From Patescibacteria group bacterium (GTDB lineage: Bacteria; Patescibacteriota; Minisyncoccia; Phycocordibacterales; Phycocordibacteraceae): 64,000 bases of DNA. Both the position numbers and the translations under genes were made by a program. Positions 442-63,790 of the stretch are shown here, piece after piece. The notes beneath the pieces are model-generated. The model ran no database searches, was not told the DNA's origin, and saw only the letters and a program-made list of their open reading frames with translations. The stretch spans positions 70,428-134,427 of the forward strand of contig JAZJYZ010000001.1 of the NCBI GenBank assembly GCA_040390125.1, given 5' to 3'. The number at the start of each line of letters is the position of its first letter. Position 1 is the first letter of the stretch.

Positions 442-627
442 GAAGCAAATTTCTTGCTACTATCTTAGAGATATGAGTTTTATAAAAACACTATGATTCA
501 CAATCGCTACACGAAAAGCTGGTCTGGTTTTAACTAAGAAATTCCTTCCGACGCCTGGAAAGCGTGTCGGAGTTTTCTTATTCTCCCCGCTATACACTAT
601 TCACTGTCCACTAATCACTACTCATCT

Positions 628-10831: not shown

Positions 10832-11755
10832 ATGAATTTCTTTAAAAAATACGCTCCGTTTCTTGTCCTTTTTGCGGCGATGCTTTGGGCAACAGATGCA
10901 CCTTTCCGTATCCATTTAACCGAAGGTCTTTCAAGTAATTTTATTGTTCTTGGTGAGCACTTCATCGCCATACTATTTGTATTACCTATACTCCTTCTCA
11001 ATTTCAGAGAACTAAAAAAATTAAAACTAAAAGAGTGGTTAGCGGTTCTCTTCATTGCTATTGGCGGAAGTGCCCTTGCATCCATTGCGTTTACCCAAGC
11101 ATTCCATTACCTCAACCCATCGGTTGCAATTCTCTTACAGAAACTTCAACCATTCATGGTGATTGGTTTAGCGGCAGTCGTTTTGAAAGAAACACTGGGC
11201 AAGCGTTTTTGGCTTTTCGCTCTGGTCTCAATCGTGGGTGCATACCTCATCTCATTCCCTAATCTTATTCCGCAAACGTATCCCGGTGAGACATTTAATG
11301 CGAACCTGCTTGGCGTAGGACTCGCACTCATCGCTGCATTCTTCTGGGGTGCATCGACGGTGTTTGGTAAGGTGGTGCTGAATAAAACAAACTTTAAAGT
11401 TATGACGTCGCTCCGGTTTTGCGTTGCGTTTGTGTTTCTTGTTTTCTTGAACCTATTCCAACACTCGTTCCCCGAATGGAGCACCGTTACATCAACTGAC
11501 TATCTCTTCATATTCATAATCGGCATCACCTCAGGAGTGGTCTCACTCTTCATCTACTACAAAGGGCTTGAGAACACGAGTGCATCAGTTGCGACAATGG
11601 CGGAACTCGGCTTCCCTCTTGGGGCAGTTGTCGTGAACTGGATATTCCTAGGCGCCATTCTTCTCCCGATGCAAATCTTTGGCATGGCAATTCTACTGTT
11701 GGGTGTATACGGACTTGCGAAATACAACCGGGCATCTGAAGTGGCTAGCGTTTAG
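10832..11755 (+). CDS. EamA/DMT-family transporter
   Basis: 307 aa with about 10 TM helices and an EamA-like duplicated architecture. Confidence 0.6.
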   Translation: MNFFKKYAPFLVLFAAMLWATDAPFRIHLTEGLSSNFIVLGEHFIAILFVLPILLLNFRELKKLKLKEWLAVLFIAIGGSALASIAFTQAFHYLNPSVAILLQKLQPFMVIGLAAVVLKETLGKRFWLFALVSIVGAYLISFPNLIPQTYPGETFNANLLGVGLALIAAFFWGASTVFGKVVLNKTNFKVMTSLRFCVAFVFLVFLNLFQHSFPEWSTVTSTDYLFIFIIGITSGVVSLFIYYKGLENTSASVATMAELGFPLGAVVVNWIFLGAILLPMQIFGMAILLLGVYGLAKYNRASEVASV

Positions 11756-11799
11756 GGTTTAGTGCTCAGGGAACTCCCCTAAACGCTAAACGCTGTTCA

Positions 11800-12501
11800 C
11801 TAACCCCTGCGCTCTATCTCCTCAATCGATTTGTTGCGGTGCATGATTTCATCATTTCTCACTGACCTGAAGAATTCGTATTGATTCGGGGCCTCTCTAC
11901 CGTACCACTCAAGATATTTACTCACCATCGGTTTCTTTTTTAATTCTTCGCCGTTCGCTTCAAGAAAGCGAGAATACTGCTCAAATGCATGAGACTCAAA
12001 AAGATAGTTGAGCTCCAGTGCATTTCGTGGATTAAAAACATACAACCAGTAGGCCGCCCAAAAATAGAAGAAAGCAAAAAGCATCGGTATGACAGTGTGC
12101 ACAAGCACGTTGTCTTTCTGTTCAGCCTTGGCAAGCGCTGAAATTACTACAACATGCATTGTTTCGTTGTCTGTTGCTAAGCGAGCAAATTGCGAGAGTT
12201 TTGCAAGTCGCATAGCTTTACTCTCATTTTGATAAAACATTGTGAGAAAAGTAAATGCAGCAGAGTCCCATGAATGGTATGGGACGCGCGCAATCACTTC
12301 CACTGCTCTGAATTTCAAATATGAAGGTGCCTTGCCGTATACGGTATTCCCGCACCACACGAGCATGTGACCAAGAATACGTGGAAGTAAGTGGGGCTTG
12401 TAGTCATCGTATGGCTTTTTATATTCTTCGAGGGTGGTGGGATCATTGAGTGAAGCATTTAAAGCCTCAAGTTCTTCGTGCGTCTGCTCCATGCCGTACA
12501 T
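11800..12501 (-). CDS. Alternative oxidase (di-iron carboxylate quinol oxidase, AOX/PTOX family)
   Basis: 233 aa with four di-iron-binding-like motifs: AVEVIARVP, NETMHVVV, LFESHAFEQY and RNDEIMHRN. Confidence 0.6.
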   Translation of the reverse strand: MYGMEQTHEELEALNASLNDPTTLEEYKKPYDDYKPHLLPRILGHMLVWCGNTVYGKAPSYLKFRAVEVIARVPYHSWDSAAFTFLTMFYQNESKAMRLAKLSQFARLATDNETMHVVVISALAKAEQKDNVLVHTVIPMLFAFFYFWAAYWLYVFNPRNALELNYLFESHAFEQYSRFLEANGEELKKKPMVSKYLEWYGREAPNQYEFFRSVRNDEIMHRNKSIEEIERRG

Positions 12502-13030: not shown

Positions 13031-13234
13031 ACTAGGCGATGCCCCATCGGATCCGCAGGGATCATTTAGTGTTTAGGGGATAGGGTCTAGAGAAAACACA
13101 TAGGACAGTGTTTTTTCGGGGTTTTGTGCTAAATTTGAACGACTGTTCGTAGGCAACTGCTCCCGTAAGCGAAGCTTTCGGGGGCTCGCTCGAAGAGTAT
13201 GAAAATGCTAGCATTTTCATGTTCCTTCTCTCTC

Positions 13235-13306
13235 GCTCCCGTCGTTCAATGGATAGGACATATCCTTGCGGAGGATACGATGTGGGTTCGATTCCTGCCG
13301 GGAGCA
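13235..13306 (+). tRNA. tRNA-Arg (anticodon GCG as read)
   Basis: GCTCCCG-TC-GTTC..GGAC-A-TATCC-TTGCGGA-GGATA-CGAT-GTGGG-TTCGATT-CCTGC-CGGGAGC-A. The anticodon loop TTGCGGA gives GCG, which is unusual because bacteria typically use ACG. No CCA is encoded. Confidence 0.75.
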
Positions 13307-13310
13307 CAGG

Positions 13311-13347
13311 TATAGAAAAAGTCGGGATTACTCCCGACTTTTTCTAT
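13311..13347. terminator. Bidirectional rho-independent terminator hairpin
   Basis: agaaaaa-GTCGGGA-ttac-TCCCGAC-tttttct, directly after the tRNA-Arg. Confidence 0.6.
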
Positions 13348-13356
13348 ACTCTAAAT

Positions 13357-13510
13357 GTGCTCCCGGCAGGAATCGAACTGCGGGCCGCAGGGAGCGATGA
13401 GCGACCGTAGGTTTCGAGTCGTAGCAACGACGAGAGGCGATTCCTGCCGCAACTCGTGACCGATTCCTGCTGAGAGGCGATTCCTGCCAAAATGCACGAC
13501 CGATTCCTAA
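13357..13510. repeat. tRNA-Arg 3'-end fragment array: one inverted 21-nt copy plus 2 x 2 tandem T-arm-like units
   Basis: 13357-13377 gtgctcccggcaggaatcgaa is the exact reverse complement of the 3' end of the tRNA at 13235-13306. 13431-13510 holds [gaggcgattcctgcc-N9-gaccgattcctg] twice. Confidence 0.7.
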
Positions 13511-13511
13511 T

Positions 13512-13550
13512 AAAAAAATAAAACCTCGCAAATGGCGAGGTTTTATTTTT
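13512..13550. terminator. Rho-independent terminator (hairpin CCTCGC-aaatg-GCGAGG between A and T runs)
   Basis: aaaaaaataaaaCCTCGCaaatgGCGAGGttttattttt. It sits downstream of the minus-strand small gene at 13569-13745. Confidence 0.55.
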
Positions 13551-14022: not shown

Positions 14023-14112
14023 AGTGTTCGCAGGCTACCATGAGTGGATTCAAGATTCAAGATTCACGAGCTAAAACTGTCCACTGTACACTCTTCGCTG
14101 TACACTATTCTC

Positions 14113-19586: not shown

Positions 19587-19611
19587 GATGATGTTCCCTA
19601 AACGCTAAACC

Positions 19612-22077
19612 CTATTCACTAAATGTTCCCTCCGGAACCGACGAGGCGTCGCCTAGTTTAGACATTTCCCCCCAATTAGCTCCGACGGAAGAAGAGGAAA
19701 GAATGGGAACGCCTTTTGTTTTCTCAGGCGGGACTATTCCCTGCATATGCTCAAGGATTTTTGGGGCAAGCTCTTTTACTTTTTCTTTTCGTATTTCGAA
19801 AATAAGCTCATCGTGCACCTGGAGAATGAGGTGGGCATCTCCTTTGTATTCTCTCTGCAAAAGAGCATCGATTTCAATCATGGCGAGCTTGATGATGTCA
19901 GCTTGGGTGCCCTGCATCGGTGCGTTCAGTGCCTGTCGCTCTGCCTCGGCGCGCACGAAGGGCAATTTTGAACGAAGCCCCAGGAAAAAACGTTTCCTGC
20001 CGAAAAGTGTTTTCGTATAGCCGAGCCTGGACGCATCCGCTTTCACTGAAGTTAGATACTCTGCAAGACCTGCAAAGTTTGCAAAGTAGTCAGTGAGGTA
20101 TGCCTGTGCTTCGCTACGCTCAACTTTTTGTGCTCCAGTATCGAGGTTCATCTTGAGCGCATTGACTCCCATGCCATAGAGAATGCCGAAGTTAATAACC
20201 TTTGCCCTGCGACGCATCTCCGCATCAACTTCCTCGGGTGGAACTTTAAAAACGGCGGCGGCGACCGCACGGTGTACGTCCTCTCCACGCTTAAAAATAT
20301 CAATGAGCTTTTCATCACCCGAGAGAAATGCTGCAATGCGCAATTCTATTTGCGAATAGTCGAATGCTGCGAGCACAAAGCCTGGAGTAGCAACAAACGC
20401 ATTGCGGATACGTCGGCCAAGTTCGGTCTTAACAGGAATATTTTGCAAACCCGGGTCCTTTGAAGCCATGCGACCAGTTGCAGCGCCGGTCTGAATAAAC
20501 GTCGTGTGCAGACGACTTTCCTCGTCCAAGAGAGGCGGAATGGCGTCAATGTAGGTACCTAACAGCTTGGAGAGACTGCGATACGCAAGAATGTCATCGA
20601 TAATAGGATGTGCGTCTTTTAATTTTACTAGCTCGGATTCTTTAGTTGAGAGTTGGCCAGTTGCTGTCTTTTTTTGGCGTTTACCCTCTATGCCAATGCC
20701 AAGTTTAGTAAAAAGAATATCCCCTAGTTGCTTTGGTGAACTTATATTAAATTCTGTCCCCGCATGGGCATGTATTTTTTTCTCGAGCTTCGCAAGTTCT
20801 TTTGTATATTGATGCGATAGGTCTTTTAAATACGGCGCATCAATCAATACGCCACGTTTATTCATAGCCTCAACGACAGGAATGAGTGGTTTTTCAATGT
20901 TTTCAAAAACCCATGTTAATTCTTCCTTTTCCACCAGGATTTTGAGCTTCGCATGTGCCTCAGCAATACTGGCTGATTTTGTGTTCGCAAGCACGTCGTC
21001 GAGCGTCGGATTCGTAATCTCTGACTGGGTGAGCCAAAGCATGACTGCAGATTCAGCGAGAAGCGCTGAATCTGCAGAGTTTAGAGTACTGAGTCCAGAG
21101 TTCTGAGTTTCAGTAGTAACTTTGGACTCTGGACTCAGTACTCTCGACTCAGAACTGCCCGCCAAAGCACTCATTCTCGGCACAAGAGAACGGAACCCCA
21201 GATCGGTAAAAAGAGCCGTAGCGTTTGCAACATCAAGAGTGTCTCTAAATGTCTTTTCAGGTTCTTTAAAAACAATTGGTGCGTCGGTGCGTATCGTTGC
21301 CAAAACCTTTGAAAATTCAGCTTCATCTTCGTGCTCCCGAAGTAAATTTACGTTCCTCTCTGAAAACCCCGCCTCTTTCCACCTGTCCGTCGTCCACTGC
21401 GCACTGTGCACTGCTTTATATACCCCTTCCATTGAGTCAAATGCCTGCAAAAGCTTGGTTGCAGTTTTCTCACCAATACCAGGAATTCCTATGATGTTGT
21501 CAGATGGATCACCTGCAAATCCTTTGTAATCAGGAATGCGAACAGGTAGAAACCCGTATCTCGCAAGCACTGCTTTCTCATCGTAGAGAATAGTATCTTG
21601 AATACCTTTGCGAAGCGTAAATACTCGAACTTTTTCATCGTCAACCAACTGCAATGTATCCATGTCGCCGGACGCAATGATGACATTAAAGTTTTTTTTC
21701 GCACTCGTGGCTATCGTGCCAATAATATCGTCGGCTTCAAAGCCTGGCATTTCATAGATAGGAATACTGAACGCCGACAAAATGTCCCTTGAGCGATTAA
21801 TTTGCGTTATGAGAGAATCATCGATTTGTGGACGTTTCGCTTTGTACTCTTTATATACCTCGTGACGATGCGTTGGCCCTGGCAGGTCATACGCGGCAAC
21901 TACGTGGTCGGGCTTTAAATCCTTGATGATTTTTATGAGCATCGCTGCAAGTCCGTACACAGCATTCACTGGCTCCCCTGACGGCGAGTACATCTCCGGT
22001 AGTGCATGGTAGGCGCGATGGATAATCGCATGGGTATCAAGGAGGATGAGCGTCTCTTTTGCTTTTTTTGCACTCAT
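19612..22077 (-). CDS. polA: DNA polymerase I (5'-3' exonuclease plus polymerase domains, no recognisable 3'-5' exo domain)
   Basis: 821 aa. N-terminal DTHAIIHRAYHA (FEN/5'-exo). Motif B RRRAKVINFGILYGMG and motif C LQVHDELIFE are present. Confidence 0.9.
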   Translation of the reverse strand: MSAKKAKETLILLDTHAIIHRAYHALPEMYSPSGEPVNAVYGLAAMLIKIIKDLKPDHVVAAYDLPGPTHRHEVYKEYKAKRPQIDDSLITQINRSRDILSAFSIPIYEMPGFEADDIIGTIATSAKKNFNVIIASGDMDTLQLVDDEKVRVFTLRKGIQDTILYDEKAVLARYGFLPVRIPDYKGFAGDPSDNIIGIPGIGEKTATKLLQAFDSMEGVYKAVHSAQWTTDRWKEAGFSERNVNLLREHEDEAEFSKVLATIRTDAPIVFKEPEKTFRDTLDVANATALFTDLGFRSLVPRMSALAGSSESRVLSPESKVTTETQNSGLSTLNSADSALLAESAVMLWLTQSEITNPTLDDVLANTKSASIAEAHAKLKILVEKEELTWVFENIEKPLIPVVEAMNKRGVLIDAPYLKDLSHQYTKELAKLEKKIHAHAGTEFNISSPKQLGDILFTKLGIGIEGKRQKKTATGQLSTKESELVKLKDAHPIIDDILAYRSLSKLLGTYIDAIPPLLDEESRLHTTFIQTGAATGRMASKDPGLQNIPVKTELGRRIRNAFVATPGFVLAAFDYSQIELRIAAFLSGDEKLIDIFKRGEDVHRAVAAAVFKVPPEEVDAEMRRRAKVINFGILYGMGVNALKMNLDTGAQKVERSEAQAYLTDYFANFAGLAEYLTSVKADASRLGYTKTLFGRKRFFLGLRSKLPFVRAEAERQALNAPMQGTQADIIKLAMIEIDALLQREYKGDAHLILQVHDELIFEIRKEKVKELAPKILEHMQGIVPPEKTKGVPILSSSSVGANWGEMSKLGDASSVPEGTFSE

Positions 22078-22511
22078 ACGATCCTCTCTCTAAGCTCCCG
22101 TTCGTTTTCAGATAAGACTTCGAAATCAAGACAATGAAGCCCTGGTTGCATCCCACCGGGCACCCGCTCAGGCCACTCTACAAGAATGAGATTCTCGGGC
22201 TCTCCTATGTACTCTTTCCATCCGACAGTGTCGGTGTCGGCACTCTCTAGACGATACGCATCAACGTGTACTAATTTCTTGAAGGGAGGATGTGGAATGG
22301 GCATAGGATATACCTGAACAATTGGGAATGTCGGGCTCGTTACTGCAGATTCAATACCTAGTGCCTTAGCCACTTCTTTGGTAAAAGCAGTCTTCCCCGC
22401 ACCAAGCTCCCCACATAAGCCCACAATGTACGCCCCCTGCCTATGGTGTTTCGGCAAACCCTCCACAAACTTTCTGGCATATTCTGGCAGTTCTTCCAAC
22501 GTCACTTTCAT
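22074..22511 (-). CDS. tsaE: tRNA threonylcarbamoyladenosine biosynthesis protein TsaE
   Basis: 145 aa with GELGAGKTAFTKEVAKALG...SPTFPIV...HVDAYRL. Confidence 0.8.
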   Translation of the reverse strand: MKVTLEELPEYARKFVEGLPKHHRQGAYIVGLCGELGAGKTAFTKEVAKALGIESAVTSPTFPIVQVYPMPIPHPPFKKLVHVDAYRLESADTDTVGWKEYIGEPENLILVEWPERVPGGMQPGLHCLDFEVLSENERELRERIV

Positions 22512-22608
22512 ATCTCTTATAATCAGTATAATGCCGTTTCTTGGATGTTCCCAAGCTAAAAGCTAGAAGCTAGAAGCTAGAAGCTACCTTTAAGGTACTA
22601 TTCTCTCT

Positions 22609-24282
22609 ATGGTACAAACCGACGACACTGACAACCGCCTCCGAGAGCTACAGCTCAGGGAAGAAGAAGAGCTCACACTTATGCTTTCGCATAGGTATAA
22701 GGTTCGCTATCTGGATTTGACTCGGGTCTCCATTAACACTGATGCACTTCGTCTTATTCTGGAACCTACCGCTCGGGACGCTGAAGTTGCAGCGTTCGAC
22801 ATCGTTGGTAAAAAACTTACACTCGCTGTACGCTCTCCTCAACATCCGAAGCTTCCACTACTCTTAGAAGATTTAAAAAAACTTGGATACGAAATCGAAG
22901 AGGTAATGGTGTCACGTGTATCTTTGGAGCGTGCATGGGAACACTATAAAGATCTTTCTTTCGCAGTAGAGTCAAAGCAAGGTGTGCTGGATGTTTCACC
23001 GGAGGAGTTAAAAAAGGTAATCGGGACAATACATACCATAGAAGACATACAGAAAGCTGTTGCAAGCGTGACTGAGATGAAGCGTGCGTATCGTGTATCA
23101 AAAATACTTGAAGTAGTTCTTGCTGGAGCATTTGCGGTTGAAGCCTCCGACATTCACATTGAGCCGGAACAAACTCAAGTACGCCTGAGGTATCGCCTTG
23201 ATGGTGTCTTGCACGACGTTATCAATTTCGACACAGATACATCAAATCTTCTATTGTCCCGACTAAAGCTACTCTCGGGGTTGAAGTTGAACCTTAAGAG
23301 TCGCCCACAAGACGGACGATTTAGTCTTGCAATGGAAGGCAAAGAGATAGAAATTCGCACTTCTGTGATTCCCGGTGCGTACGGAGAAACAGTGGTGATG
23401 CGTCTTTTGAACCCTGACACTATTTCCGTACCATTTGAGGCTCTCGGCATGGAACCGAAACTACGAGCGCTCGTTGAGCGTGAAATCGGTAATCCAAACG
23501 GCATGCTCTTAAACACGGGGCCAACAGGTAGTGGAAAAACAACCACGTTGTATGCGTGCATGAAAAAAATAAATTCTTCTGAAATCAAAATAATTACCAT
23601 TGAAGACCCTGTTGAATATCACGTCGACGGCCTCGTGCAAACCCAAGTGGATGAAAAAAATTACACATTCCTCCAAGGGCTACGTTCCGCCTTGCGACAA
23701 GATCCCGATGTCATCATGATTGGAGAAATTCGTGACGAGGAAGTTGCGAAAACTGCAATTGATGCTGCACTCACCGGTCACTTCGTATTCTCAACATTGC
23801 ACACAAACGATGCCGCCGGCTCATTCCCTCGCCTTGTTGATCTTGGAGTGGATGCAAAAGTGTTTGGCTCTGCAATCAACGTGGCAATGGCACAAAGATT
23901 GGTGCGAGTTTTGTGCAAGCAATGCAAGAAACAAGTTCCACTTGAAGGTAAAGATAAGGAGCACGTTGATACGGTGCTTGCGGGTCTGCGGGATAAAAGC
24001 ATCATTCCAGCTGACATCTCAAAGGTATTTGCACCAGTGGGGTGTCCTGCCTGCAACAATACTGGGTTCAAGGGTCGTATCGGTGTATTTGAAGCGGTAG
24101 TAATTGATACTGAGATGGACACACTGCTTCGCACATCCCCTTCCGAACACGACATACAGAAGCTTCAACGCACAAAAGAAATACTCACGATGGTTGAAGA
24201 CGGCATTATGAAAGTTTTGACTGGCGTCACTTCTCTCGACGAACTCAACCGAGTGGTCTTAATTGAGGAAACCCTGAAATAA
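22609..24282 (+). CDS. pilB: Type IV pilus/T2SS assembly ATPase (PilB/GspE family)
   Basis: 557 aa with Walker A GPTGSGKTTT and EDPVEY, a His box (TLHTNDAAG) and a CxxC...CxxC tetracysteine. Confidence 0.85.
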   Translation: MVQTDDTDNRLRELQLREEEELTLMLSHRYKVRYLDLTRVSINTDALRLILEPTARDAEVAAFDIVGKKLTLAVRSPQHPKLPLLLEDLKKLGYEIEEVMVSRVSLERAWEHYKDLSFAVESKQGVLDVSPEELKKVIGTIHTIEDIQKAVASVTEMKRAYRVSKILEVVLAGAFAVEASDIHIEPEQTQVRLRYRLDGVLHDVINFDTDTSNLLLSRLKLLSGLKLNLKSRPQDGRFSLAMEGKEIEIRTSVIPGAYGETVVMRLLNPDTISVPFEALGMEPKLRALVEREIGNPNGMLLNTGPTGSGKTTTLYACMKKINSSEIKIITIEDPVEYHVDGLVQTQVDEKNYTFLQGLRSALRQDPDVIMIGEIRDEEVAKTAIDAALTGHFVFSTLHTNDAAGSFPRLVDLGVDAKVFGSAINVAMAQRLVRVLCKQCKKQVPLEGKDKEHVDTVLAGLRDKSIIPADISKVFAPVGCPACNNTGFKGRIGVFEAVVIDTEMDTLLRTSPSEHDIQKLQRTKEILTMVEDGIMKVLTGVTSLDELNRVVLIEETLK

Positions 24283-31603: not shown

Positions 31604-31605
31604 TG

Positions 31606-31700
31606 GGGGGGGCTTCCAGCTGTCAGCTTCTAGCTTTCAGCTTTCAGCTTTAATTTCAGAAAAGCTGGAAGCTGGCACCTGGAAGCTAGAAGCTAATTAG
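31606..31700. repeat. Oligo-repeat spacer forming a long imperfect hairpin (agctttcag / agctagaag words) between convergent genes; likely a bidirectional terminator
   Basis: cttccagctgtcagcttctagctttcagctttcagcttt-aatttc-agaaaagctggaagctggcacctggaagctagaagct. Confidence 0.55.
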
Positions 31701-31960: not shown

Positions 31961-32025
31961 AAGGTGCTAGGTGCTAGGTGCTAGGTGCTAGCTTTAAAAG
32001 CTAGAAGCTAGTCCCTAGAACCTGA
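31961..32025. repeat. Oligo-repeat spacer ((ggtgctag)x4, agctagaag)
   Basis: aaggtgctaggtgctaggtgctaggtgctagctttaaaagctagaagctagtccctagaacc. Confidence 0.5.
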
Positions 32026-34820: not shown

Positions 34821-34976
34821 ATGAAAAGAACATACCAACCTAAAAAAAGAAAGAGAGCTACAACCCACGGCTTCTTGGTCCGCACAGCAACTACCTCTGG
34901 CAGGAAGGTTTTGAAGAATCGTCGTCGCAAAGGCCGTGCAAAACTCACTGTTCAAAGCAAGAAAAAGGGAAAATAG
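34821..34976 (+). CDS. rpmH: 50S ribosomal protein L34
   Basis: 51 aa: [44 protein letters not shown].... It is not in the ORF track because it is under 60 aa. Confidence 0.85.
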
Positions 34977-35052
34977 TGTTTAGGGTGTAGGGAAAGAAGT
35001 TTATTTTTCATGCTTCCCTAGTGGCTATACCCTAGTGGCTACCCCCTAATCT

Positions 35053-35367
35053 ATGTTGTCGAAAAAAGAGCGCGTTTCAAGGCTCACATTCCAAAAGCGA
35101 CCTGTACGTACAGGTCGCTTTATATATGGCTCTATAAAAGGGTTTGAGGGAGATCCTGCTGGGGCCGTTGTCGTTTCAAAAAAAGTCTGCCGTACGGCTC
35201 CAGCACGAAATAAGCTTAGACGAAGGATTTACAATATTCTCCGTCCTCTCATCCGCACCAAGGCACTTCAAGGTAACGTTATCGTGTATCCAAATGCACT
35301 GGCTATGAAGGCTCCGTTTCAAGAGCTGAAGAAAGAACTGGAGAAGCGTTTAGGGGTTAGCGTTTAG
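35053..35367 (+). CDS. rnpA: RNase P protein component
   Basis: 104 aa. LSKKERV...RNKLRRRI... is basic and RnpA-like, and its position after rpmH fits. Confidence 0.75.
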   Translation: MLSKKERVSRLTFQKRPVRTGRFIYGSIKGFEGDPAGAVVVSKKVCRTAPARNKLRRRIYNILRPLIRTKALQGNVIVYPNALAMKAPFQELKKELEKRLGVSV

Positions 35368-35450
35368 GGGCTAGTGTTGACAGAAAGGTAAAAAATATAG
35401 AACCCTACTTCGCTAAACGCTAAACACTAGCCCCTAACCCCTCTCCTGCG
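35368..35450. repeat. Oligo-repeat spacer forming an inverted repeat (ggggttagcgtttaggggctagtgtt ... aacactagcccctaacccct)
   Basis: Seen directly. It contains the ctaaacgctaaac word shared with other junctions. Confidence 0.55.
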
Positions 35451-35465
35451 TTATGATGCCTTGAA

Positions 35466-36200
35466 ATGGCATCTTTTTTTCATACAGCGGTATATCAGCC
35501 AATCTATAACGCACTCGCATTCATTATAGGTATTGTGCCGGGAGGCGACATAGGTGTCGCCATTATAGTTATTACCATTTTGGTGCGTTTTGTTCTGTTC
35601 CCTCTTTCCCTTACGGCAATAAAAACGCAAATCTCGATGCGTGCCATTGAACCGCAATTGAAGGCACTGAGAGATGAGCTGAAAGATAACAAGGAAGAGC
35701 TGGCACGCCGTACCATGGCACTTTTTAAAGAAAATAATATTAATCCGTTTGCAAGCTTCCTTTTGATACTGATCCAACTTCCTATAATTATTGGCTTGTA
35801 TTTAGTGCTTCAAAGTGAGACTAAGGTCGTATCGTTTGATCCAAGCGTACTCTACTCATTTGTGCACGCCCCCGAACAAGCGTCACTCCTATTTCTTGGT
35901 CTTATGGACCTTACGGGCAAAAGTATCCTCTTGGCACTCTTGGTCGCAGTCACCCAATTCATCTATGCCCGCCTCATGACCCCCGTGGCTCCTCCAAAAA
36001 ATACTTCAGGAAAACCTGCTTCTTTTCAAGATGATTTGGCAAGGAGTATGCATCTTCAAATGAGATATGTCTTCCCTGCGGTTATTGGCTTTGTCGCATA
36101 CGCCGCATCCTCAGCCATCGCACTCTACTTCCTTGTCGGTAACCTTTTCAGTATTGGACAGGAAATACTTATACGACGTATGCATCATGGAAAAAGATAA
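35466..36200 (+). CDS. yidC: Membrane protein insertase YidC (short form)
   Basis: 244 aa with 5 TM helices and a YidC/Oxa1-like core. It sits in the conserved rnpA-yidC-jag order. Confidence 0.75.
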   Translation: MASFFHTAVYQPIYNALAFIIGIVPGGDIGVAIIVITILVRFVLFPLSLTAIKTQISMRAIEPQLKALRDELKDNKEELARRTMALFKENNINPFASFLLILIQLPIIIGLYLVLQSETKVVSFDPSVLYSFVHAPEQASLLFLGLMDLTGKSILLALLVAVTQFIYARLMTPVAPPKNTSGKPASFQDDLARSMHLQMRYVFPAVIGFVAYAASSAIALYFLVGNLFSIGQEILIRRMHHGKR

Positions 36201-37886: not shown

Positions 37887-37898
37887 AGAAGCTCAAAG

Positions 37899-38597
37899 TT
37901 ATTTAGGGAGGGCACAGCACTGGTACCCTTCCGCAAGAGCCGGGCAACACTGGTTGTTTATTCTGGAGTAACCGACATCCATGAGTCGTTCACACGAGGC
38001 CCCGGTGGGCACAGCTCGAGGATTCTTAAATTGCGTACACGCCACCGTTACTTCCGCAGCTTGGGACACTGTTGGAACGGTACAGATAATAACAGACTCA
38101 TTTTTTGTAGCAGTTCCACCTTGCTTTTTGCAGTCTGCTTCGCTCGTTGCAGGAATTGTCGTTCGAGCGTCACTTTCAAAACTGCCCAGCATCGTTAAAT
38201 CTTTGGTAAGTGCATCCAGGTTAAGAATATTGGGGTTAATCACGTGCAAAATTACATATGCCAAGAGAAGCAGGATAAGACCCATCGCCGCACCCTGCAG
38301 GCCCTCCATCGCAGCCTGCTTTTTACCGACGACATCTGATGCCATGTATTTGAATCCGTCGAACGTAATCATGATGACCCCAAGGATTGCCGCAATGGCA
38401 ATCGTGAGCCCAAACACCGCATTCAGGTAGCTGGTGAGCGAGGTGCTGGAATCAACGGCACCACTTCCAGTTGGGAGTGGCACTGAGACGATTGGTTGAA
38501 ACTGAAATTGCGGAGCTTTGTCTGCCGCTAGTGCAGGAGTTATTCCTCCGAGGAGTGAAGCGAAGAGAAATGCGAGGGTTATGAGTATGCGGGACAT
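37899..38597 (-). CDS. VirB2/TrbC-like pilin candidate with a Cys-rich C-terminal extension
   Basis: Signal peptide (...ITPALAADKA), then two hydrophobic helices separated by a short loop (LTIAIAAILGVIMITF / AAMGLILLLLAYVILHVI), then a tail with 8 Cys. I chose the internal Met start, which gives a 4-nt-type overlap with the upstream gene. Confidence 0.4.
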   Translation of the reverse strand: MSRILITLAFLFASLLGGITPALAADKAPQFQFQPIVSVPLPTGSGAVDSSTSLTSYLNAVFGLTIAIAAILGVIMITFDGFKYMASDVVGKKQAAMEGLQGAAMGLILLLLAYVILHVINPNILNLDALTKDLTMLGSFESDARTTIPATSEADCKKQGGTATKNESVIICTVPTVSQAAEVTVACTQFKNPRAVPTGASCERLMDVGYSRINNQCCPALAEGYQCCALPK

Positions 38598-38598
38598 A

Positions 38599-39567: not shown

Positions 39568-39574
39568 CTGTTCA

Positions 39575-39738
39575 TTATAAGGGATGGGGAAGCTTTCAGC
39601 TTTCAGCTTTCAGCTTTCAGGGGGGAAATCAGCAGGGAGGCTTCTAGCGGACAGGCGATGTTTCATCGGATCCGTAGGGATCATTTAGCGTCTAGCTTTA
39701 ACTGCAGAAGCTAGTCGCTAAACGCTAGCCGCTATCCC
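39575..39738. repeat. Oligo-repeat spacer ((agctttcag)x3, agctagtcgctaaacgctagc) plus a 32-nt motif shared with 13045-13076
   Basis: Seen directly in the sequence. Confidence 0.55.
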
Positions 39739-41550
39739 CTAGCTGTTTCCCTCTCTTTTCTCCCGTGCTATCGAAAGCAACTGGGATGGGTCTGAGGTAA
39801 TTATCTGGTCTTCTGTGTAGGAGGCGATGATTTTTATGGCTACGTGCTTAAGACCTGCGAAGAAAATACCTTCACCGACGTCAGATTCTAGAAGCAGGTA
39901 TTTCTCCTCCTCGGTTAAGTTGAAGGTTTTTTGCACGGCCTCTATGGATGTGGGTGACTGCTTGAGAAGAATCTGAATAGAAGAGTTGGTGAGCATCGGC
40001 AAACCGTAGGGAGACTTCAAGAAGTCTTCTACGTCTTGAGTAATAGTGGCGAGCCCCAGATAGTATTTTCTTCCACGTTTCGCCATACCATAGAGGAATG
40101 CAGCAGTGTCTTCAGATTTCATCATCCACCACGCCTCGTCAATGACGAGCAGACGTTTACGCAGGTCCTTCCTGACCGCATTCCAAATAAAGTGCGTAAT
40201 GATATACATCGCAATCGTTTTTAGCTCGTCTTCCATGTTTCGAACTGAAAACGCCACGAACTTTTTGTTGATGTCTACGTTTGTTGGTCGGTTAATGAAG
40301 CCAGACCACGTACCTTTTGTGTATTTTGTAACTCTCTGCACCAAGGACTCGCTTCCTTCCATGCCTGCAAGCACAAGTTCGAAGTCAGACAAAAGCGGCG
40401 GCTCCATGTTGGTGAAGTCGTTGGCACCAGTGATGTCTTTAAGTGCGTACGTTTCTGTAATGGCCCGATCAATAATTGCATCTTCTTCAGGGGTAAGACC
40501 GCCAAGCATCAACCGAAACAATCCCACTAAGTTGATTATGTTTGATCGCAAGATGTCAGCCGGCGATTCATCTTCACGTGGCACCGGCAAATCGAAAGGG
40601 TTGATGCGGTTTTCTGAAGACAGTGAAATATTGAAAAATCTTCCACCAACGGCGTTTGCCAGGTACTCGTATTCGCTTTCAGGGTCTATGACGATGACTT
40701 CAGTGTCGAACATGAGCGACCGCAATATTTCAAGCTTCGTACCATATGACTTTCCGGAGCCAGATTTCGCAAAGGTGACGGAGTTATAGTTTTCCAAGGA
40801 AAATCTGTCGAACAAGATTAACGATGAGTTGTGTCTGTTAATGCCGTACAGAATTCCCTTGTCGCTTGTGAGGTCGAATGAAATGAATGGGAAGAAGCTT
40901 GAAAGCGGAGCAGAGTTCATTTTTGAGTTAACGGCGAGCTGGTCATCCCCTATCGGTATGACGCTTCGAAATCCCTGCTCTTGCTGGAAGAGAGCTGGTT
41001 TTATGTATACGAGTTTTGCGTCAAGAATCGAACGCATTTCGGCCTCTGTTTTGTCGAGCTCATCTTGGTTCGTGCCATAAATCGATATATAAAGACCAAC
41101 ATCAAATATGCGTTCTTGTGCCTGCTGGAGTTGATCACGGAGTTGTTCAATGTCTTGGGAGGCCGTGTCGAGTATTGGGTCACGCACCATCCCCTTCTCT
41201 TGGCGTGTCATTCTTTGGCTTTGAACCTCGGCAACCTTTTTCTGTAGTTTTCGAAGGACTGCCGCAGTGTCGATTGGATGGATGAATATAGAAATATCCA
41301 AAACCCTGTCACGGTTAATGATTGGTGCAAACCATGTGCCAGACAAAAAGCGAGGATATGAAATCACGTAAAAGGTACGCACCAGCTTGTCGCCCAAGTT
41401 CATCTCACGAGGAGTAATTTTGAGAGCTGACGGTGCAATAATGTCAGCAAAGTCTAACTTCGCCGCTTCGTAAATGTCTTTTGGCAAAAACGGCGTCAGT
41501 GCGTCTTTCTTTTTTGTTCCTTTCCCAGTGAATGCGTCGAAAATTCCCAT
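39739..41550 (-). CDS. Type IV secretion/conjugation ATPase, VirB4/TraC/TrbE class (C-terminal ATPase portion)
   Basis: 603 aa with Walker A FAKSGSGKSYG, DPESEY and Walker B LLVIDEAWWMM. The overall pattern matches VirB4-family ATPases. Confidence 0.7.
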   Translation of the reverse strand: MGIFDAFTGKGTKKKDALTPFLPKDIYEAAKLDFADIIAPSALKITPREMNLGDKLVRTFYVISYPRFLSGTWFAPIINRDRVLDISIFIHPIDTAAVLRKLQKKVAEVQSQRMTRQEKGMVRDPILDTASQDIEQLRDQLQQAQERIFDVGLYISIYGTNQDELDKTEAEMRSILDAKLVYIKPALFQQEQGFRSVIPIGDDQLAVNSKMNSAPLSSFFPFISFDLTSDKGILYGINRHNSSLILFDRFSLENYNSVTFAKSGSGKSYGTKLEILRSLMFDTEVIVIDPESEYEYLANAVGGRFFNISLSSENRINPFDLPVPREDESPADILRSNIINLVGLFRLMLGGLTPEEDAIIDRAITETYALKDITGANDFTNMEPPLLSDFELVLAGMEGSESLVQRVTKYTKGTWSGFINRPTNVDINKKFVAFSVRNMEDELKTIAMYIITHFIWNAVRKDLRKRLLVIDEAWWMMKSEDTAAFLYGMAKRGRKYYLGLATITQDVEDFLKSPYGLPMLTNSSIQILLKQSPTSIEAVQKTFNLTEEEKYLLLESDVGEGIFFAGLKHVAIKIIASYTEDQIITSDPSQLLSIAREKREGNS

Positions 41551-41552
41551 AT

Positions 41553-42227: not shown

Positions 42228-42249
42228 AGTATTTGAAAGGTTCTAGCTT

Positions 42250-42630
42250 CTAGGTGCTAGCTTTAAGGCTAGCAATCACAGCGACAAGCATTCTTGAAAC
42301 TTCTTCGAGCATTGCCGTCGATTCATTATAGTCGATTTTTTCTCCGTATTCTAAGCGTTTAGCCATTTCCAACTGTGTTTCTAGCTCTGAAGTAGATCCT
42401 AATGCGATGTGTAAAAATTGTGCAAAATCTTTTCTGGTACCACGTGATCTACCTTCGGCTATATTGGAAGGAATAGAAACAGCACTTCTTCTCATTTGAG
42501 AAATAAGTCCAAATTTTTCTTCCGATGGAAACTTTGAAGTAAATTTGTAAATAACCATTGCTAAATCTACCCCCTTTTGCCAAACAATCAGGTCTTTATG
42601 AGAACGTATTTGAGTTTTAGTTTTTTGCAT
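42250..42630 (-). CDS. Four-helix-bundle protein ('23S rRNA intervening-sequence protein' family), paralog 1
   Basis: 126 aa with LIVWQKGVDLAMVIYKFTSKFPSEEKFGLISQMRRSAVSIPSNIAEGRSR...FLHIALGSTSELETQL, the family signature. Confidence 0.7.
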   Translation of the reverse strand: MQKTKTQIRSHKDLIVWQKGVDLAMVIYKFTSKFPSEEKFGLISQMRRSAVSIPSNIAEGRSRGTRKDFAQFLHIALGSTSELETQLEMAKRLEYGEKIDYNESTAMLEEVSRMLVAVIASLKAST

Positions 42631-42674
42631 TTGAAAGCTAGCACCTAGAACCTAGTCCCTAGCACCCCCCCCCT

Positions 42675-43112: not shown

Positions 43113-43171
43113 GGAAGTGAATAGAACAGTGAACAGAGTACAGTGTACAGTGAACAGAGAGAAAAATGGAG

Positions 43172-43564
43172 TTACGTATGTGCTTTTGTTTTCAATACTG
43201 CGATAAGTTTTGAAAGCATGAGTTTAAGTTCAAGGGTTTGTTGGCGTAAATTGACACATTCTTTATTTGAGGAAAATTTGAGTTTTTCGGCTATAACAAT
43301 TTGAGTATCTAACTCCGCAAGTGAACCAAGTGCAATGTGCAAAAACTGTATAAAGTCTTTAGTGGTATTACGTGATTTCCCTTCAGCAATATTTGATGGA
43401 ATAGAAACCGCTGACCTCCGCATCTGAGAGATAAGTCCAAATTTTTCATCGGACGGATATTTTGATGTCGCAATATATATTTTTTCTACAAGGTTGATTG
43501 ATTTCTGCCACACCAATAAATTCTCATGCGAAGCTACACGGCCACCGTTATCAGAGTCACTCAT
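43172..43564 (-). CDS. Four-helix-bundle protein ('23S rRNA intervening-sequence protein' family), paralog 2
   Basis: 130 aa with LLVWQKSINLVEKIYIATSKYPSDEKFGLISQMRRSAVSIPSNIAEGKSR...FLHIALGSLAELDTQI, over 60% identical to paralog 1. Confidence 0.7.
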   Translation of the reverse strand: MSDSDNGGRVASHENLLVWQKSINLVEKIYIATSKYPSDEKFGLISQMRRSAVSIPSNIAEGKSRNTTKDFIQFLHIALGSLAELDTQIVIAEKLKFSSNKECVNLRQQTLELKLMLSKLIAVLKTKAHT

Positions 43565-43629
43565 ATTTTCTAGCTTCTTAATTCAGCGTCTTAAAGCTGT
43601 ACACTGTTCACTAAACACTATCCCCTACC

Positions 43630-44436: not shown

Positions 44437-44439
44437 AGG

Positions 44440-51253: not shown

Positions 51254-51338
51254 TCTACCCTCAAGTATAACCCCACGTATAAAGGACGCTTGTCCTTTAT
51301 ACGTGTGCGTGGGGATTAGGACGGGATATAGTGTACGT

Positions 51339-60039: not shown

Positions 60040-60128
60040 TCCTAACATGGCTAGCCATTAGCCACTAGAGATTAGCCAATAGGGAGGATTTGGTCAGTCT
60101 GAGTTCCCTACACCCTAGTGGCGAGTGG
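60040..60128. repeat. Oligo-repeat spacer (ctagccattagccactag ... ccctagtggcgagtggctaat)
   Basis: Same word style as 34977-35052 (cctagtggcta). Confidence 0.5.
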
Positions 60129-63612: not shown

Positions 63613-63790
63613 GAATGTATAACGTTATGAGATTCGCAGAATTCAGGGCGGGCTAACCCTCCTCTGTATCTGAGAACCTCGCTTTTAATAGGCTGAGTAT
63701 AGCAAAAAACGCCTTTTGTGAAAGACGTTTTTTGCGCCGTCGTTTTTAGAAAAGCTGAAAGCTGACACCTGTAAGCTGAAAGCTTCTTGT

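What the first reader, a model, noticed from the sequence alone, without database searches (positions are those of the whole stretch)
22545..22600. Genome-wide style of stop-codon-rich, AGCT-containing oligo-repeat spacers at gene junctions (representative copy)
At least 15 junctions carry tandem 8-10-nt words, for example agctagaag, agctttcag, ggtgctag, ctaaacgcta, cagtgaacag and cctagtggcta. They occur at 11756-11815, 13040-13095, 19587-19620, 22545-22600, 31606-31700, 31961-32025, 34977-35052, 35368-35450, 39575-39738, 42228-42249, 42631-42674, 43113-43171, 43565-43629, 60040-60128 and 63740-63790. Each word embeds TAG/TAA/TGA, often in several frames. Many are arranged as inverted repeats that can fold into long hairpins, for example at 31606-31700 and 35368-35450. 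They sit both between convergent genes (terminator-like) and between co-directional genes. The consistent vocabulary across distant loci argues for a specific repeat family, perhaps REP/MITE-like or a terminator/insulator family, rather than chance low complexity.
Basis: seen in the sequence. Interest (0 to 1): 0.7.

Follow-up and report, generated by a model that had tools for sequence, protein, structure and literature searches.

The report
Heptamer-repeat hairpin elements at gene junctions
The "oligo-repeat spacers" are real 7-base tandem repeats (unit CTRNNNN) that fill about a quarter of the gene junctions of this Patescibacteria genome. [quoted passage not shown]

Summary
The repeats exist at all 15 listed sites and far exceed chance, but the period is 7 nt, not 8-10. 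All "words" reduce to one degenerate unit, C-T-R-N-N-N-N. Stop codons in all frames and long hairpins (5 sites, z -3.5 to -4.5) are confirmed.

The window comes from a Patescibacteria (Paceibacteria/"Kaiserbacteria"-like) chromosome near dnaA. Outgroup relatives have 0-45 nt at the same junctions. One subclade carries 55-240 nt inserts built of heptad arrays, with genome-specific "dialects" and copy-number changes.

Both PF05635 genes in the window (23S_rRNA_IVP / S23p / Avd-like) are variably present among relatives. Each is bracketed by inverted heptad arrays that close a stem around the ORF. That is the architecture of the S23p intervening sequence of Coxiella 23S rRNA, which has heptamer repeats and an RNase III-cut stem.

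Of 30 such genes across four phyla, 27 have a flanking 7-nt array and 18 have significantly complementary flanks. In Xanthomonas the flanks are the GGGAATC repeat.

Best reading: IVS-type selfish elements, with or without the ORF, sitting in mRNA junctions. Intergenic heptamer repeats are already known; their presence in CPR and the link to the IVP gene appear new.

The parts
22550..22588 (.). Representative copy: a single direct array, CTAAAAG + CTAGAAG x3-4 (TRF: AAGCTAG x4.9, 96% matches). It lies between divergent tsaE (22074-22511, -) and pilB (22609-24282, +), between conserved -10-like boxes.
   Evidence: It is unstructured (z +0.39). Orthologous arrays occur in L002, L004, L026 and L095; the site is absent in L001 and the outgroups.
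590..624 (.). Direct array CTATACA CTATTCA CTGTCCA CTAATCA CTACTCA, upstream of the gene at 628-1290.
11740..11812 (.). ORF-less inverted pair (CGTTTAG / CTAAACG dialect) between convergent genes. The left arm overlaps the 3' end of the EamA gene.
   Evidence: Fold -30.5 kcal/mol, z -3.46.
13036..13092 (.). Nested ~35-nt two-hairpin element (GGCGATG..CATCGGATCCGCAGGGATCAT) followed by a weak array TTTAGTG TTTAGGG GATAGGG TCTAG.
19591..19620 (.). Array CTAAACG CTAAACC CTATTCA filling the polA/holA-like junction. The polA stop codon (TAG) lies inside it.
   Evidence: C-terminal extension of PolA relative to homologues.
31613..31697 (.). ORF-less inverted pair (CAGCTTT / AAAGCTG dialect) between convergent PBP1A and orf87. 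It is preceded by a G8 run.
   Evidence: Fold -45.3 kcal/mol, z -4.43. The junction is -8 to 22 nt in 13 of 14 outgroups (300 nt in L007) against 82-93 nt in the subclade.
31962..32023 (.). ORF-less inverted pair, (GGTGCTA)x4 and CTAGAAG CTAGTCC CTAGAAC, between orf87 and dnaN.
   Evidence: z -3.83. The GGTGCTA copy number is 4, 4, 3 and 2 in the window, L002, L004 and L026. L003 has a different dialect and L001 has none.
34977..35050. Arrays TGTTTAG GGTGTAG GG ... CTAGTGG CTATACC CTAGTGG CTACCCC, between rpmH (about 34822-34973, read by eye from the alignment) and rnpA.
   Evidence: (z -1.81).
35343..35443 (.). ORF-less inverted pair (CGTTTAG/GGGGCTA ... CTAAACG/CTAGCCC) between rnpA and yidC. 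The left arm supplies the rnpA stop codon.
   Evidence: -42.3 kcal/mol, z -4.14. The junction is 0-45 nt in outgroups.
39589..39744 (.). Composite spacer: (CTTTCAG)x4, a G6 run, a second copy of the nested ~35-nt element (39655-39690), then CTAGTCG CTAAACG CTAGCCG CTATCCC.
   Evidence: (z -4.48).
42238..42266 (.). Downstream (mRNA-sense) terminal array of the ivp1 cassette. It overlaps the ORF's last codons and stop.
   Evidence: 27-nt arm, 89% complementary to 42634-42660. The pairing closes the cassette in both the MFE and centroid folds.
42250..42630 (-). ivp1: a 126-aa PF05635 / TIGR02436 four-helix-bundle protein (23S rRNA intervening-sequence protein, Avd-like).
   Evidence: Pfam 5e-41; NCBIfam; PDB 2GSC 7.8e-26. 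No IVP gene lies at this junction in L005, L015, L019 (theirs is on the other side of prgI), and L008, L012, L018, L028, L029 and L024 have none in this region.
42634..42667 (.). Upstream terminal array of the ivp1 cassette (CTAGCAC CTAGAAC CTAGTCC CTAGCAC), followed by a C9 run.
   Evidence: inverted match 17/18, p = 0 in 300 shuffles.
43120..43160 (.). Downstream terminal array of the ivp2 cassette (CTGTTCA CTGTACA CTGTACT CTGTTCA CTGTTCT on the mRNA strand).
   Evidence: (16 nt, 94% complementary to 43597-43612).
43172..43564 (-). ivp2: a 130-aa PF05635 protein. It is absent at this junction in L001, L003 and L026, and no second IVP homologue was found in L002 or L004.
   Evidence: At this junction L001 is empty (2 nt), L003 and L026 carry an ORF-less element (143-144 nt), and the window carries the full cassette.
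43597..43629 (.). Upstream terminal array of the ivp2 cassette (CTGTACA CTGTTCA CTAAACA CTATCCC on the + strand).
   Evidence: p = 0.013.
60046..60128 (.). Degenerate arrays (CTAATCT CTAGTGG CTAATGG CTAGCCA ... CTACACC CTAGTGG) between a 451-aa ORF and the dksA/traR-like gene.
   Evidence: (z -0.5).
63750..63784 (.). Direct array CTGAAAG CTGACAC CTGTAAG CTGAAAG, upstream of pnp (61399-63612).
21076..21151 (.). Inverted pair of heptad arrays inside the polA ORF. It encodes part of the hypervariable linker (about aa 309-334). A further array lies at 21385-21413.
   Evidence: The linker is unalignable among PolA homologues.
14042..14103 (.). Arrays (GATTCAA x3; ACTGTMC) at the annotated 5' end of ruvA. 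The RuvA_N domain starts at aa 24, so the array is probably 5' leader.

Best explanation
The spacers are heptad-repeat arrays (unit CTRNNNN). They are the terminal repeats of intervening-sequence (IVS)-type selfish elements that have colonised gene junctions in one subclade of Paceibacteria-like Patescibacteria.

Three forms occur:
- Full elements carry a PF05635 gene (IVP/S23p, an Avd-like four-helix bundle) between two inverted arrays.
- ORF-less elements are the two arrays back to back, forming a long hairpin.
- Solo arrays are half or decayed elements.

Shown here:
- 7-nt periodicity and the common unit.
- Insertion relative to outgroup genomes.
- Presence/absence of the IVP gene at fixed junctions.
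- Inverted arrays closing a stem round each IVP ORF.
- Copy-number change, and genome-specific dialects shared between IVP flanks and ORF-less arrays.
- The same gene-plus-array arrangement in other phyla.

Inferred:
- Arrays grow and shrink by slipped-strand mispairing, and are homogenised within a genome by conversion or re-insertion.
- On transcripts, paired arrays form dsRNA that RNase III cuts, as demonstrated for the S23p IVS of Coxiella. This would segment operon mRNAs.
- The stop codon built into nearly every unit (7 = 1 mod 3, so three units stop all frames, and CTAG/CTAA do so on both strands) is what lets such inserts survive when they abut or replace ORF ends in a very compact genome.
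- The IVP protein may be the cognate binding or mobilising factor.
For: Periodicity and unit.

Lineage-specific insertion:
- pbp|orf87 is -8 to 22 nt in 13 of 14 outgroups (300 nt in L007) against 82-93 nt in the window, L002, L003, L004 and L026.
- orf87|dnaN is -1 to 28 nt in most outgroups against 55-79 nt.
- rnpA|yidC is 0-45 nt against 97-130 nt.
- In the window, junctions with arrays have a median length of 93 nt against 21.5 nt without.

IVP cassettes:
- All 12 IVP genes in the window and CPR loci have a lag-7 array on at least one flank.
- 10 of 12 have complementary flanks at p <= 0.025.
- The window arms are 27 nt at 89% and 16 nt at 94% complementary, and both close the cassette in MFE and centroid folds.
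- Loci without an IVP at that junction have 3-56 nt and no heptads.
- Empty, ORF-less and full states all occur at the one junction g268|prgI.

Dialects: L003 is CTAA-type in 16 of 21 units, including its IVP flanks. L002 and L004 are CTAG-type. L019 has CTAAGCA in both classes of array.

Slippage: GGTGCTA x4/4/3/2 at an orthologous site. The window has a homogenised array where L095 has a degenerate one.

Other phyla:
- tblastn of ivp1 against plasmids hits 38 records, about 30 of them from heterocystous cyanobacteria.
- Of 30 IVP genes, 27 have a flanking 7-nt array, 18 have inverted flanks at p <= 0.01 and 5 have direct flanks.
- Xanthomonas and Stenotrophomonas: accB-[GGGAATC-type array]-IVP-[inverse array]-accC.
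- N. edaphicum: the IVP flanks and ORF-less hairpins share the same GGGAGTA unit.

Literature:
- The Coxiella IVS has 2-3 GACAGAT heptamers just upstream of S23p, a 28-bp terminal stem, and RNase III cleavage at the first repeat (PMC4990558).
- 23S_rRNA_IVP ORFs occur in CPR rRNA insertions (PMC11270868).
- PF05635 is homologous to DGR Avd (PMC10053308; NCBIfam).
Against: - Only 4 of the roughly 23 arrays in the window touch an IVP gene. The link of the others to IVP cassettes rests on shared unit, shared dialect and the three-state junction.
- No transposase, target-site duplication or other mobility signature was found, so no spreading mechanism is known.
- Seven of the 15 folded sites are essentially unstructured (z -1.4 to +1.1), and three more are only marginal (z about -2).
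- Some IVP genes elsewhere have direct rather than inverted flanks (Pseudanabaena, PCC 7120), or none (Gemmatirosa has period 8; Calothrix 7716 has an array on one side only). IVP genes might therefore simply prefer to insert into pre-existing arrays.
- RNase III cleavage, IVP expression and IVP binding are untested here. In Coxiella, S23p seems not to be made.
- Stop-richness is not universal in other phyla's units, by my own inspection (GGGAACA and CCTCTGC, seen, contain no stop on either strand).
- Whole-genome distribution could not be examined.
Confidence: 0.6

Rival explanations
1. These are plain long simple-sequence repeats. Heptanucleotide arrays arise and turn over by replication slippage in unconstrained intergenic DNA (Mrazek-type heptamer excess), with no element behind them. 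IVP genes are independent small mobile genes that happen to land in, or prefer, such arrays.
For: - Copy-number differences at orthologous sites.
- A degenerate array in L095 where the window has a homogenised one.
- Arrays inside the unconstrained PolA linker.
- Direct rather than inverted flanks around some cyanobacterial IVP genes.
- Heptamer excess is reported for many bacteria (PMC4692102 and PMC4679880).
Against: Slippage alone does not explain:
- the invariant CT-R register across all dialects;
- the frequent precisely inverted pairs;
- insertion of 55-240 nt blocks at junctions that are about 0-45 nt in outgroups;
- genome-wide dialect sharing;
- 18 of 30 IVP genes having significantly complementary flanks.
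Confidence: 0.2
2. The arrays are primarily host-selected RNA structure elements. They would act as factor-independent terminators or 3'-exonuclease barriers that insulate and stabilise neighbouring transcripts, as REP hairpins do in E. coli.
For: - Very stable hairpins at convergent junctions and after terminal genes (31604-31700 at -45 kcal/mol; 11736-11830).
- Junction position.
- Position is conserved across species despite sequence turnover.
Against: - No T-tract; none was found by the terminator scan.
- Seven of the 15 folded sites are unstructured (z -1.4 to +1.1), and three more are only marginal.
- Arrays sit between genes of conserved operons, in divergent promoter regions and inside ORFs.
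- Outgroup relatives manage with 0-45-nt junctions.
Confidence: 0.1
3. The arrays are translational or expression control sites. Heptamer arrays just upstream of start codons would replace Shine-Dalgarno sequences and bind a regulator (as proposed for TAACTGA in Beggiatoaceae), or act as phase-variable contingency repeats (as for the hmw1A heptamers of Haemophilus).
For: - By my reading of the sequences, several arrays abut start codons with no obvious SD (orf87, g224, prgI, g322).
- The representative copy lies in the pilB/tsaE divergent promoter region.
- Copy number varies between species.
- MacGregor 2015.
Against: - By the same reading, both strand orientations occur relative to the downstream gene.
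- Arrays also lie downstream of terminal genes and at convergent junctions.
- The neighbouring genes are housekeeping (dnaN, rnpA, yidC, polA), not typical contingency genes.
Confidence: 0.07
4. Assembly, binning or vector artefact.
For: None found.
Against: Arrays lie at orthologous junctions in independent MAGs from different studies and assemblers (SCTS01, JBBAAE01, VMHB01, JAGOSG01, PFBH01, Logan SRR22388314).
Confidence: 0.01

Closest known systems
Intervening sequence (IVS) of 23S rRNA carrying the S23p/IVP ORF (Coxiella burnetii, Leptospira; PMC4990558)
   Same: - Same protein family (PF05635).
- The ORF is enclosed by terminal inverted repeats that form a stem of about 25-28 bp.
- Tandem heptamers lie immediately upstream of the start codon.
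- Heptamer copy number varies between strains.
- ORF-less versions exist in other bacteria.
   Different: - Here the elements sit between protein-coding genes of operons, not in helix 45 of 23S rRNA.
- Both arms are heptad arrays.
- There are many ORF-less copies per genome.
- RNase III processing is not shown here.
Intergenic heptanucleotide repeats: STRR of heterocystous cyanobacteria (Mazel 1990, from my own knowledge), GGGGAYT in Nostoc and GGGAATC in Xanthomonas (PMC4692102)
   Same: - 7-nt tandem units that are intergenic.
- They occur singly or as convergent inverted pairs.
- Position is conserved between species while length varies.
- Both strands are transcribed, and function is unknown.
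   Different: - A different phylum (Patescibacteria).
- A degenerate CTRNNNN unit with several dialects per genome, rather than one dominant G-rich unit.
- Stop codons in nearly every unit.
- No G-quadruplex potential for most dialects.
- The link to PF05635 genes is not made in those papers.
TAACTGA direct repeats of Beggiatoaceae, some Cyanobacteria and Bacteroidetes (PMC4679880)
   Same: - Intergenic heptamers that create stops in all three frames.
- They often overlap the upstream stop codon and abut start codons lacking an SD.
- They are found inside conserved operons.
   Different: - In Beggiatoaceae there is a single unit, almost always direct and oriented toward the start codon.
- Here both orientations and many inverted pairs occur.
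REP/REPIN elements with their RAYT gene (PMC3116915)
   Same: - Short dispersed extragenic elements acting as inverted doublets that form hairpins.
- The associated gene is itself flanked by the repeats in inverted orientation.
- The families are genome-specific.
   Different: - The arms here are tandem heptads, not a 20-40-nt palindrome.
- The associated gene is a four-helix bundle with no known catalytic activity, not a Y1 HUH transposase.
Small dispersed repeats nested in heptamer arrays of Nostoc (Elhai et al. 2008; recalled, paper not held in the library)
   Same: The ~35-nt two-hairpin element at 13036-13070 and 39655-39690 (with copies in L003) is embedded in heptad arrays.
   Different: No sequence comparison was possible. 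This is a lead only.

Membership tests
Heptanucleotide tandem repeats (STRR / long SSR class) | Tandem head-to-tail units of 7 nt | tested here: met
   TRF periods of 7 or 14. Lag 7 is the only enriched lag.
Heptanucleotide tandem repeats (STRR / long SSR class) | Strong intergenic bias and many dispersed loci | tested here: met
   14 of 21 arrays lie in the 11% of the window that is non-coding. 19 of 71 junctions carry arrays. The whole genome was not available.
Heptanucleotide tandem repeats (STRR / long SSR class) | Copy-number variation between related genomes | tested here: met
   GGTGCTA x4/4/3/2. L095 against the window.
IVS-type element encoding S23p/IVP | ORF of family PF05635 / TIGR02436 | tested here: met
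   for 2 elements. The ORF-less copies lack it by definition.
IVS-type element encoding S23p/IVP | Terminal inverted repeats forming a stem that encloses the ORF | tested here: met
   10 of 12 CPR cassettes at p <= 0.025.
IVS-type element encoding S23p/IVP | Tandem heptamers directly upstream of the ORF start | tested here: met
   Compare Coxiella GACAGAT.
IVS-type element encoding S23p/IVP | Inserted in a 23S (or 16S) rRNA helix | tested here: not met
   All copies lie between or inside protein-coding genes. There is no rRNA in the window.
IVS-type element encoding S23p/IVP | Excision from the transcript by RNase III | not testable with these tools
   Needs RNA end mapping. No rnc gene was identified among the ORFs scanned in the window.
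REP/REPIN-RAYT | Associated RAYT (IS200/IS605-like Y1 transposase) flanked by the repeats | tested here: not met
   The flanked gene is PF05635, not a transposase.
REP/REPIN-RAYT | Inverted doublets forming hairpins, dispersed extragenically | tested here: met
MITE | Terminal inverted repeats plus target-site duplication, derived from an IS with a transposase | tested here: inconclusive
   Inverted arms are present. No target-site duplication could be defined because the ends are tandem repeats, and no parent IS was seen in the window.
Rho-independent terminator | GC-rich stem-loop followed by a T-tract | tested here: not met
   None of the arrays appear among the 40 terminator-like sites in 28-46 kb.
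Known structured RNA family (Rfam) | Match above the gathering score | tested here: not met
   Only 5 tRNAs matched.

The most novel reading that the evidence does not exclude
PF05635 proteins (S23p/IVP, the stand-alone relatives of DGR Avd) are the cognate factors of heptamer-repeat elements throughout bacteria. One gene-plus-array system, analogous to RAYT/REPIN, would then underlie several phenomena so far treated separately: the STRR repeats of cyanobacteria, the GGGAATC repeats of Xanthomonas, the S23p intervening sequences of rRNA, and the junction arrays of this CPR lineage. In this reading each protein variant recognises its own heptad dialect, and the paired arrays act as RNase III-processed stems in mRNAs.
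Probability: 0.35. Interest if true: 0.85.

Novelty: new variant of a known kind. Interest (0 to 1): 0.64.

Why it matters
Intergenic heptamer repeats (described since 1990) and the S23p intervening sequences (described since 1993) are two old puzzles, and neither has an accepted origin or function. Three results here bear on them:

- The same 7-nt arrays form the inverted ends of PF05635 cassettes in four phyla.
- ORF-less hairpins of the same dialect populate the same genomes.
- Empty, ORF-less and full states occur at a single junction.

Together these give a concrete, testable model: a selfish gene-plus-repeat system that inserts a double-stranded RNA processing site into operons.

There is also a practical side. 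In Patescibacteria, where genomes are tiny and junctions normally measure 0-45 nt, the elements make up about 14% of the intergenic DNA in this window. They supply stop codons to real genes (polA, rnpA), add codons to ORFs (the PolA linker, the ruvA 5' end), and will mislead gene callers and assemblers.

Tried and rejected
- **Cyanobacterial origin.** My first guess from the heptamers was rejected by gene content and relatives.
- **Exact-protein look-up of PilB.** Not on record.
- **Metagenome scan with the 405-aa hypothetical protein,** intended to find strain-level relatives. Strain-level polymorphism could therefore not be examined; the closest relative obtained has PolA at 91% (L095).
- **Elhai 2008 (SDR paper).** Not held in the library.
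- **Rfam.** Nothing but tRNAs.
- **Terminator and promoter consensus scan.** The arrays were not detected.
- **A strict 18/21 lag threshold.** It missed the degenerate arrays, so I relaxed it to 15-16/21 with other lags as controls.
- **A fixed strand orientation relative to transcription.** Not found (my reading), which argues against a sequence-specific RNA signal.
- **G-quadruplex explanation (Rehm 2015).** From the unit sequences, it could apply only to the TTTAGGG-type dialect, not to the CTAG or CAGCTTT dialects.
- **"YAG every 7 nt" as a cross-phylum rule.** Suggestive by eye (about 12 of 15 units plus recalled STRR units), but the chance expectation is about 36% by my own estimate, and Xanthomonas and Geminocystis fail it. 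I do not claim it.
Full report
**1. The observation**

The representative site reads CCCAAGCTAAAAGCTAGAAGCTAGAAGCTAGAAGCTACC. Tandem Repeats Finder reports it as AAGCTAG x4.9 with 96% matches. Nearly all the other listed sites come out with period 7 or 14.

- Exact self-match runs occur 6 times at lag 7. They occur 0-1 times at every other lag from 2 to 21, and never in 20 dinucleotide shuffles.
- With a tolerant criterion (at least 15 of 21 positions matching) there are 21 arrays at lag 7 against 0-3 at lags 4-13. Fourteen of these lie mostly in the 11% of the window that is non-coding.

When every array is put in register, 89 units from 23 arrays share one skeleton: C (98%), T (98%), A/G (71/28%), then four variable positions. 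The different "words" (CTAGAAG, CTAGCAC, CTAAACG, CTGAAAG, CTGTTCA, CTAGTGG...) are dialects of one unit.

The stop-codon claim holds. 17 of 23 arrays carry stops in all three frames on at least one strand (shuffles: mean 2.1). 11 of 23 do so on both strands (shuffles: mean 0.05). CTAG is five-fold enriched in intergenic DNA.

Five sites are inverted pairs that fold far better than shuffles (z -3.5 to -4.5). Of the other ten, seven are essentially unstructured (z -1.4 to +1.1) and three are marginal (z about -2).

Nineteen of 71 junctions carry arrays: co-directional, convergent and divergent. Their median length is 93 nt against 21.5 nt for junctions without arrays.

**2. Where the window comes from**

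Gene content is typical of Patescibacteria:
- dnaA-dnaN and rpmH-rnpA, with a short YidC and Jag/KhpB;
- PolA lacking the 3'-5' exonuclease domain;
- PilB;
- a PrgI/VirB4/T4SS-pilin cluster.

A DnaA-based scan of species-representative genomes returned syntenic Patescibacteria MAGs, variously labelled Paceibacterota, Kaiserbacteria or UBA2163. The five closest have 96% DnaA identity but only about 75% nucleotide identity. No strain-level relative was obtainable. The closest is L095, with PolA at 91%.

**3. Comparative anatomy**

Synteny is conserved across about 20 relatives. In outgroup genomes the junctions are minimal:
- pbp|orf87: -8 to 22 nt in 13 of 14 outgroups (L007 has 300 nt)
- orf87|dnaN: -1 to 28 nt in most
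- rnpA|yidC: 0-45 nt

In the window and in L002, L003, L004 and L026 (partly L001), the same junctions hold 55-240-nt inserts made of heptad arrays, mostly as inverted pairs.

At a given junction the dialect can differ between genomes. L003 uses TTTAGGG/CGTTTAG almost everywhere, while L002 and L004 use CTAGnnn. Within a genome, dialects are shared across junctions.

Where the element is clearly orthologous, copy number varies: GGTGCTA x4, 4, 3 and 2. At the representative tsaE|pilB junction the flanks are conserved. L095 has five degenerate CTRNNNN units where the window has a homogenised array.

Arrays also occur inside ORFs where constraint is low. Examples are the hypervariable PolA linker and the 5' extension of ruvA. 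They supply the stop codons of polA, rnpA and both IVP genes.

**4. The key finding**

The two small genes at 42250-42630 and 43172-43564 belong to PF05635/TIGR02436: "23S rRNA intervening-sequence protein", a four-helix bundle related to DGR Avd (PDB 2GSC).

They are presence/absence polymorphic at fixed junctions of a conserved operon. Each is bracketed by inverted heptad arrays of its own dialect, with arms of 27 nt at 89% and 16 nt at 94% complementarity. RNA folding closes each cassette with this terminal stem in both the MFE and the centroid structure.

All 12 IVP genes found in the window and the CPR loci have a 7-nt array on at least one flank, and 10 have significantly complementary flanks. 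Loci lacking the gene at that junction have 3-56 nt and no heptads.

The g268|prgI junction shows all three states: empty (L001, 2 nt), an ORF-less composite (L003 and L026, 143-144 nt), and a full cassette (the window).

**5. Generality**

- tblastn of ivp1 against 72,556 plasmids hits 38 records, about 30 of them from heterocystous cyanobacteria. These are the classical STRR taxa.
- Inspection of 15 of these genes shows lag-7 arrays on the flanks of most. Clean inverted pairs occur in N. edaphicum (AGTAGGG/TCCCTAC), C. brevissima, Aulosira, Nostoc C052, N. punctiforme, Geminocystis, Stanieria and Azospirillum.
- Direct flanks occur in Pseudanabaena and the PCC 7120-type copies. Gemmatirosa has period 8.
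- The genes typically sit between operon partners: nrdB|nrdA, hlyD|ABC transporter, cas6|cas4.
- In Xanthomonas and Stenotrophomonas the gene lies between accB and accC. It is flanked upstream by GGGAATC GGGAGTG GAGAATC GGGAATC and downstream by the inverse. That unit is the abundant Xanthomonas heptamer, which Rehm et al. describe as frequent convergent pairs.
- Over all 30 genes, 27 have an array on at least one flank, 18 have inverted flanks at p <= 0.01, and 5 have direct flanks.
- In 50 kb of the N. edaphicum plasmid there are 10 lag-7 arrays. Besides the two flanking the IVP gene, three more carry its GGGAGTA unit: one solo array and one ORF-less hairpin.

**6. Relation to the literature**

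The Coxiella IVS paper reports several matching features:
- variation in their number among strains;
- a 28-bp terminal stem;
- RNase III cleavage at the first repeat.

23S_rRNA_IVP ORFs occur in rRNA insertions of CPR bacteria. Intergenic heptamers with stops in all frames, lying next to start codons that lack an SD, are described for Beggiatoaceae. No paper found with the searches links dispersed heptamer repeats to PF05635 genes, apart from the Coxiella description of its own IVS.

**7. Interpretation**

The most economical account is that the arrays are the ends of IVS-type selfish elements. Full elements carry the IVP gene, and ORF-less ones are hairpins. They invaded gene junctions in one CPR subclade and evolve by slippage and within-genome homogenisation.

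Two steps are inferred rather than shown. The first is RNase III processing of the paired arrays in mRNA. The second is that the unit's built-in stop codon is what makes insertion tolerable in compact operons.

Whether the IVP protein binds or mobilises the arrays is open. The main rival is plain slippage-generated SSRs that IVP genes happen to target. The invariant register, the inverted pairing, the block insertion and the dialect sharing all weigh against that rival. The direct-flank cases and the absence of any known mobility mechanism keep it alive.

**8. Verdict**

The kind of feature (intergenic heptamer repeats; S23p IVS) is known. Its occurrence in Patescibacteria, in mRNA junctions, and the cross-phylum gene-array link appear to be new.

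Noticed in passing
window 13036-13070 and 39655-39690; L003 1330-1410 (two tandem copies), with variants in L002 and L004: A ~35-nt element, GGCGATG-N4-CATCGGATCCG-N-AGGGATC-R-TTTAG, made of two small hairpins and embedded in heptad arrays. It occurs twice in the window (0 expected). The exact core is absent from the 78 loci held at the time, but diverged copies exist in L003. It recalls the small dispersed repeats nested in Nostoc heptamer arrays (recalled from memory, not checked).
   Followed up: partly
window 31606-31613 (G8), 39621-39626 (G6), 42664-42672 (C9): Homopolymer G/C runs of 6-9 nt directly abut the outer end of several arrays, next to the neighbouring gene's stop codon. L002 and L026 have the G run at the 39.6-kb junction too.
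   Followed up: no
window 22590-22608, 35451-35466, 39568-39580, and orthologous positions in relatives: Conserved -10-like motifs lie immediately upstream of, or overlapping, start codons across about 20 genomes: GGTACTATT 8-10 nt before the pilB ATG, CTACAATGCGATG before yidC, and TCATTATA at g322. They suggest very short leaders or leaderless mRNAs. The arrays sit just outside these motifs.
   Followed up: no
window 13235-13531: tRNA-Arg(GCG) is followed by a perfect 18-bp hairpin (13308-13347). After that comes an inverted copy of the tRNA 3' end (about 13358-13380) and a 40-nt-period repeat containing CGATTCCTGC four times (13432-13508). These may be scars of integration at the tRNA gene.
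   Followed up: no
window 19612-19650 and 21076-21151 (polA): PolA carries a 12-aa C-terminal extension ending at a stop inside a heptad array. Its inter-domain linker is partly encoded by an inverted pair of heptad arrays, and the linker cannot be aligned among homologues that are 91-62% identical overall.
   Followed up: partly
window 36669-51355: A conserved chromosomal gene cluster of Gram-positive T4SS type: T4SS pilin, split VirB4/TraG-like ATPase (41553-42227 and 39739-41550), PrgI, and large ORFs of 1406, 619 and 284 aa with no Pfam match. It is syntenic in all relatives, and it is where both IVP cassettes are inserted.
   Followed up: partly
L085 (Pseudanabaena plasmid) and L086 (Anabaena sp. 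90 plasmid): In two cyanobacterial plasmids the IVP gene lies immediately upstream of cas4; in Pseudanabaena cas6 lies on the other side. In Pseudanabaena it is flanked by 14 copies of AAAGCTA and about 10 of AAAGCCA in direct orientation.
   Followed up: no
L028 (complete genome UBA2163, CP174359.1), prgI|g224 junction: This outgroup genome has no heptad arrays in the 21 kb examined, but it carries a ~1-kb insertion between prgI and g224, at the position where other genomes hold the IVP cassette.
   Followed up: no
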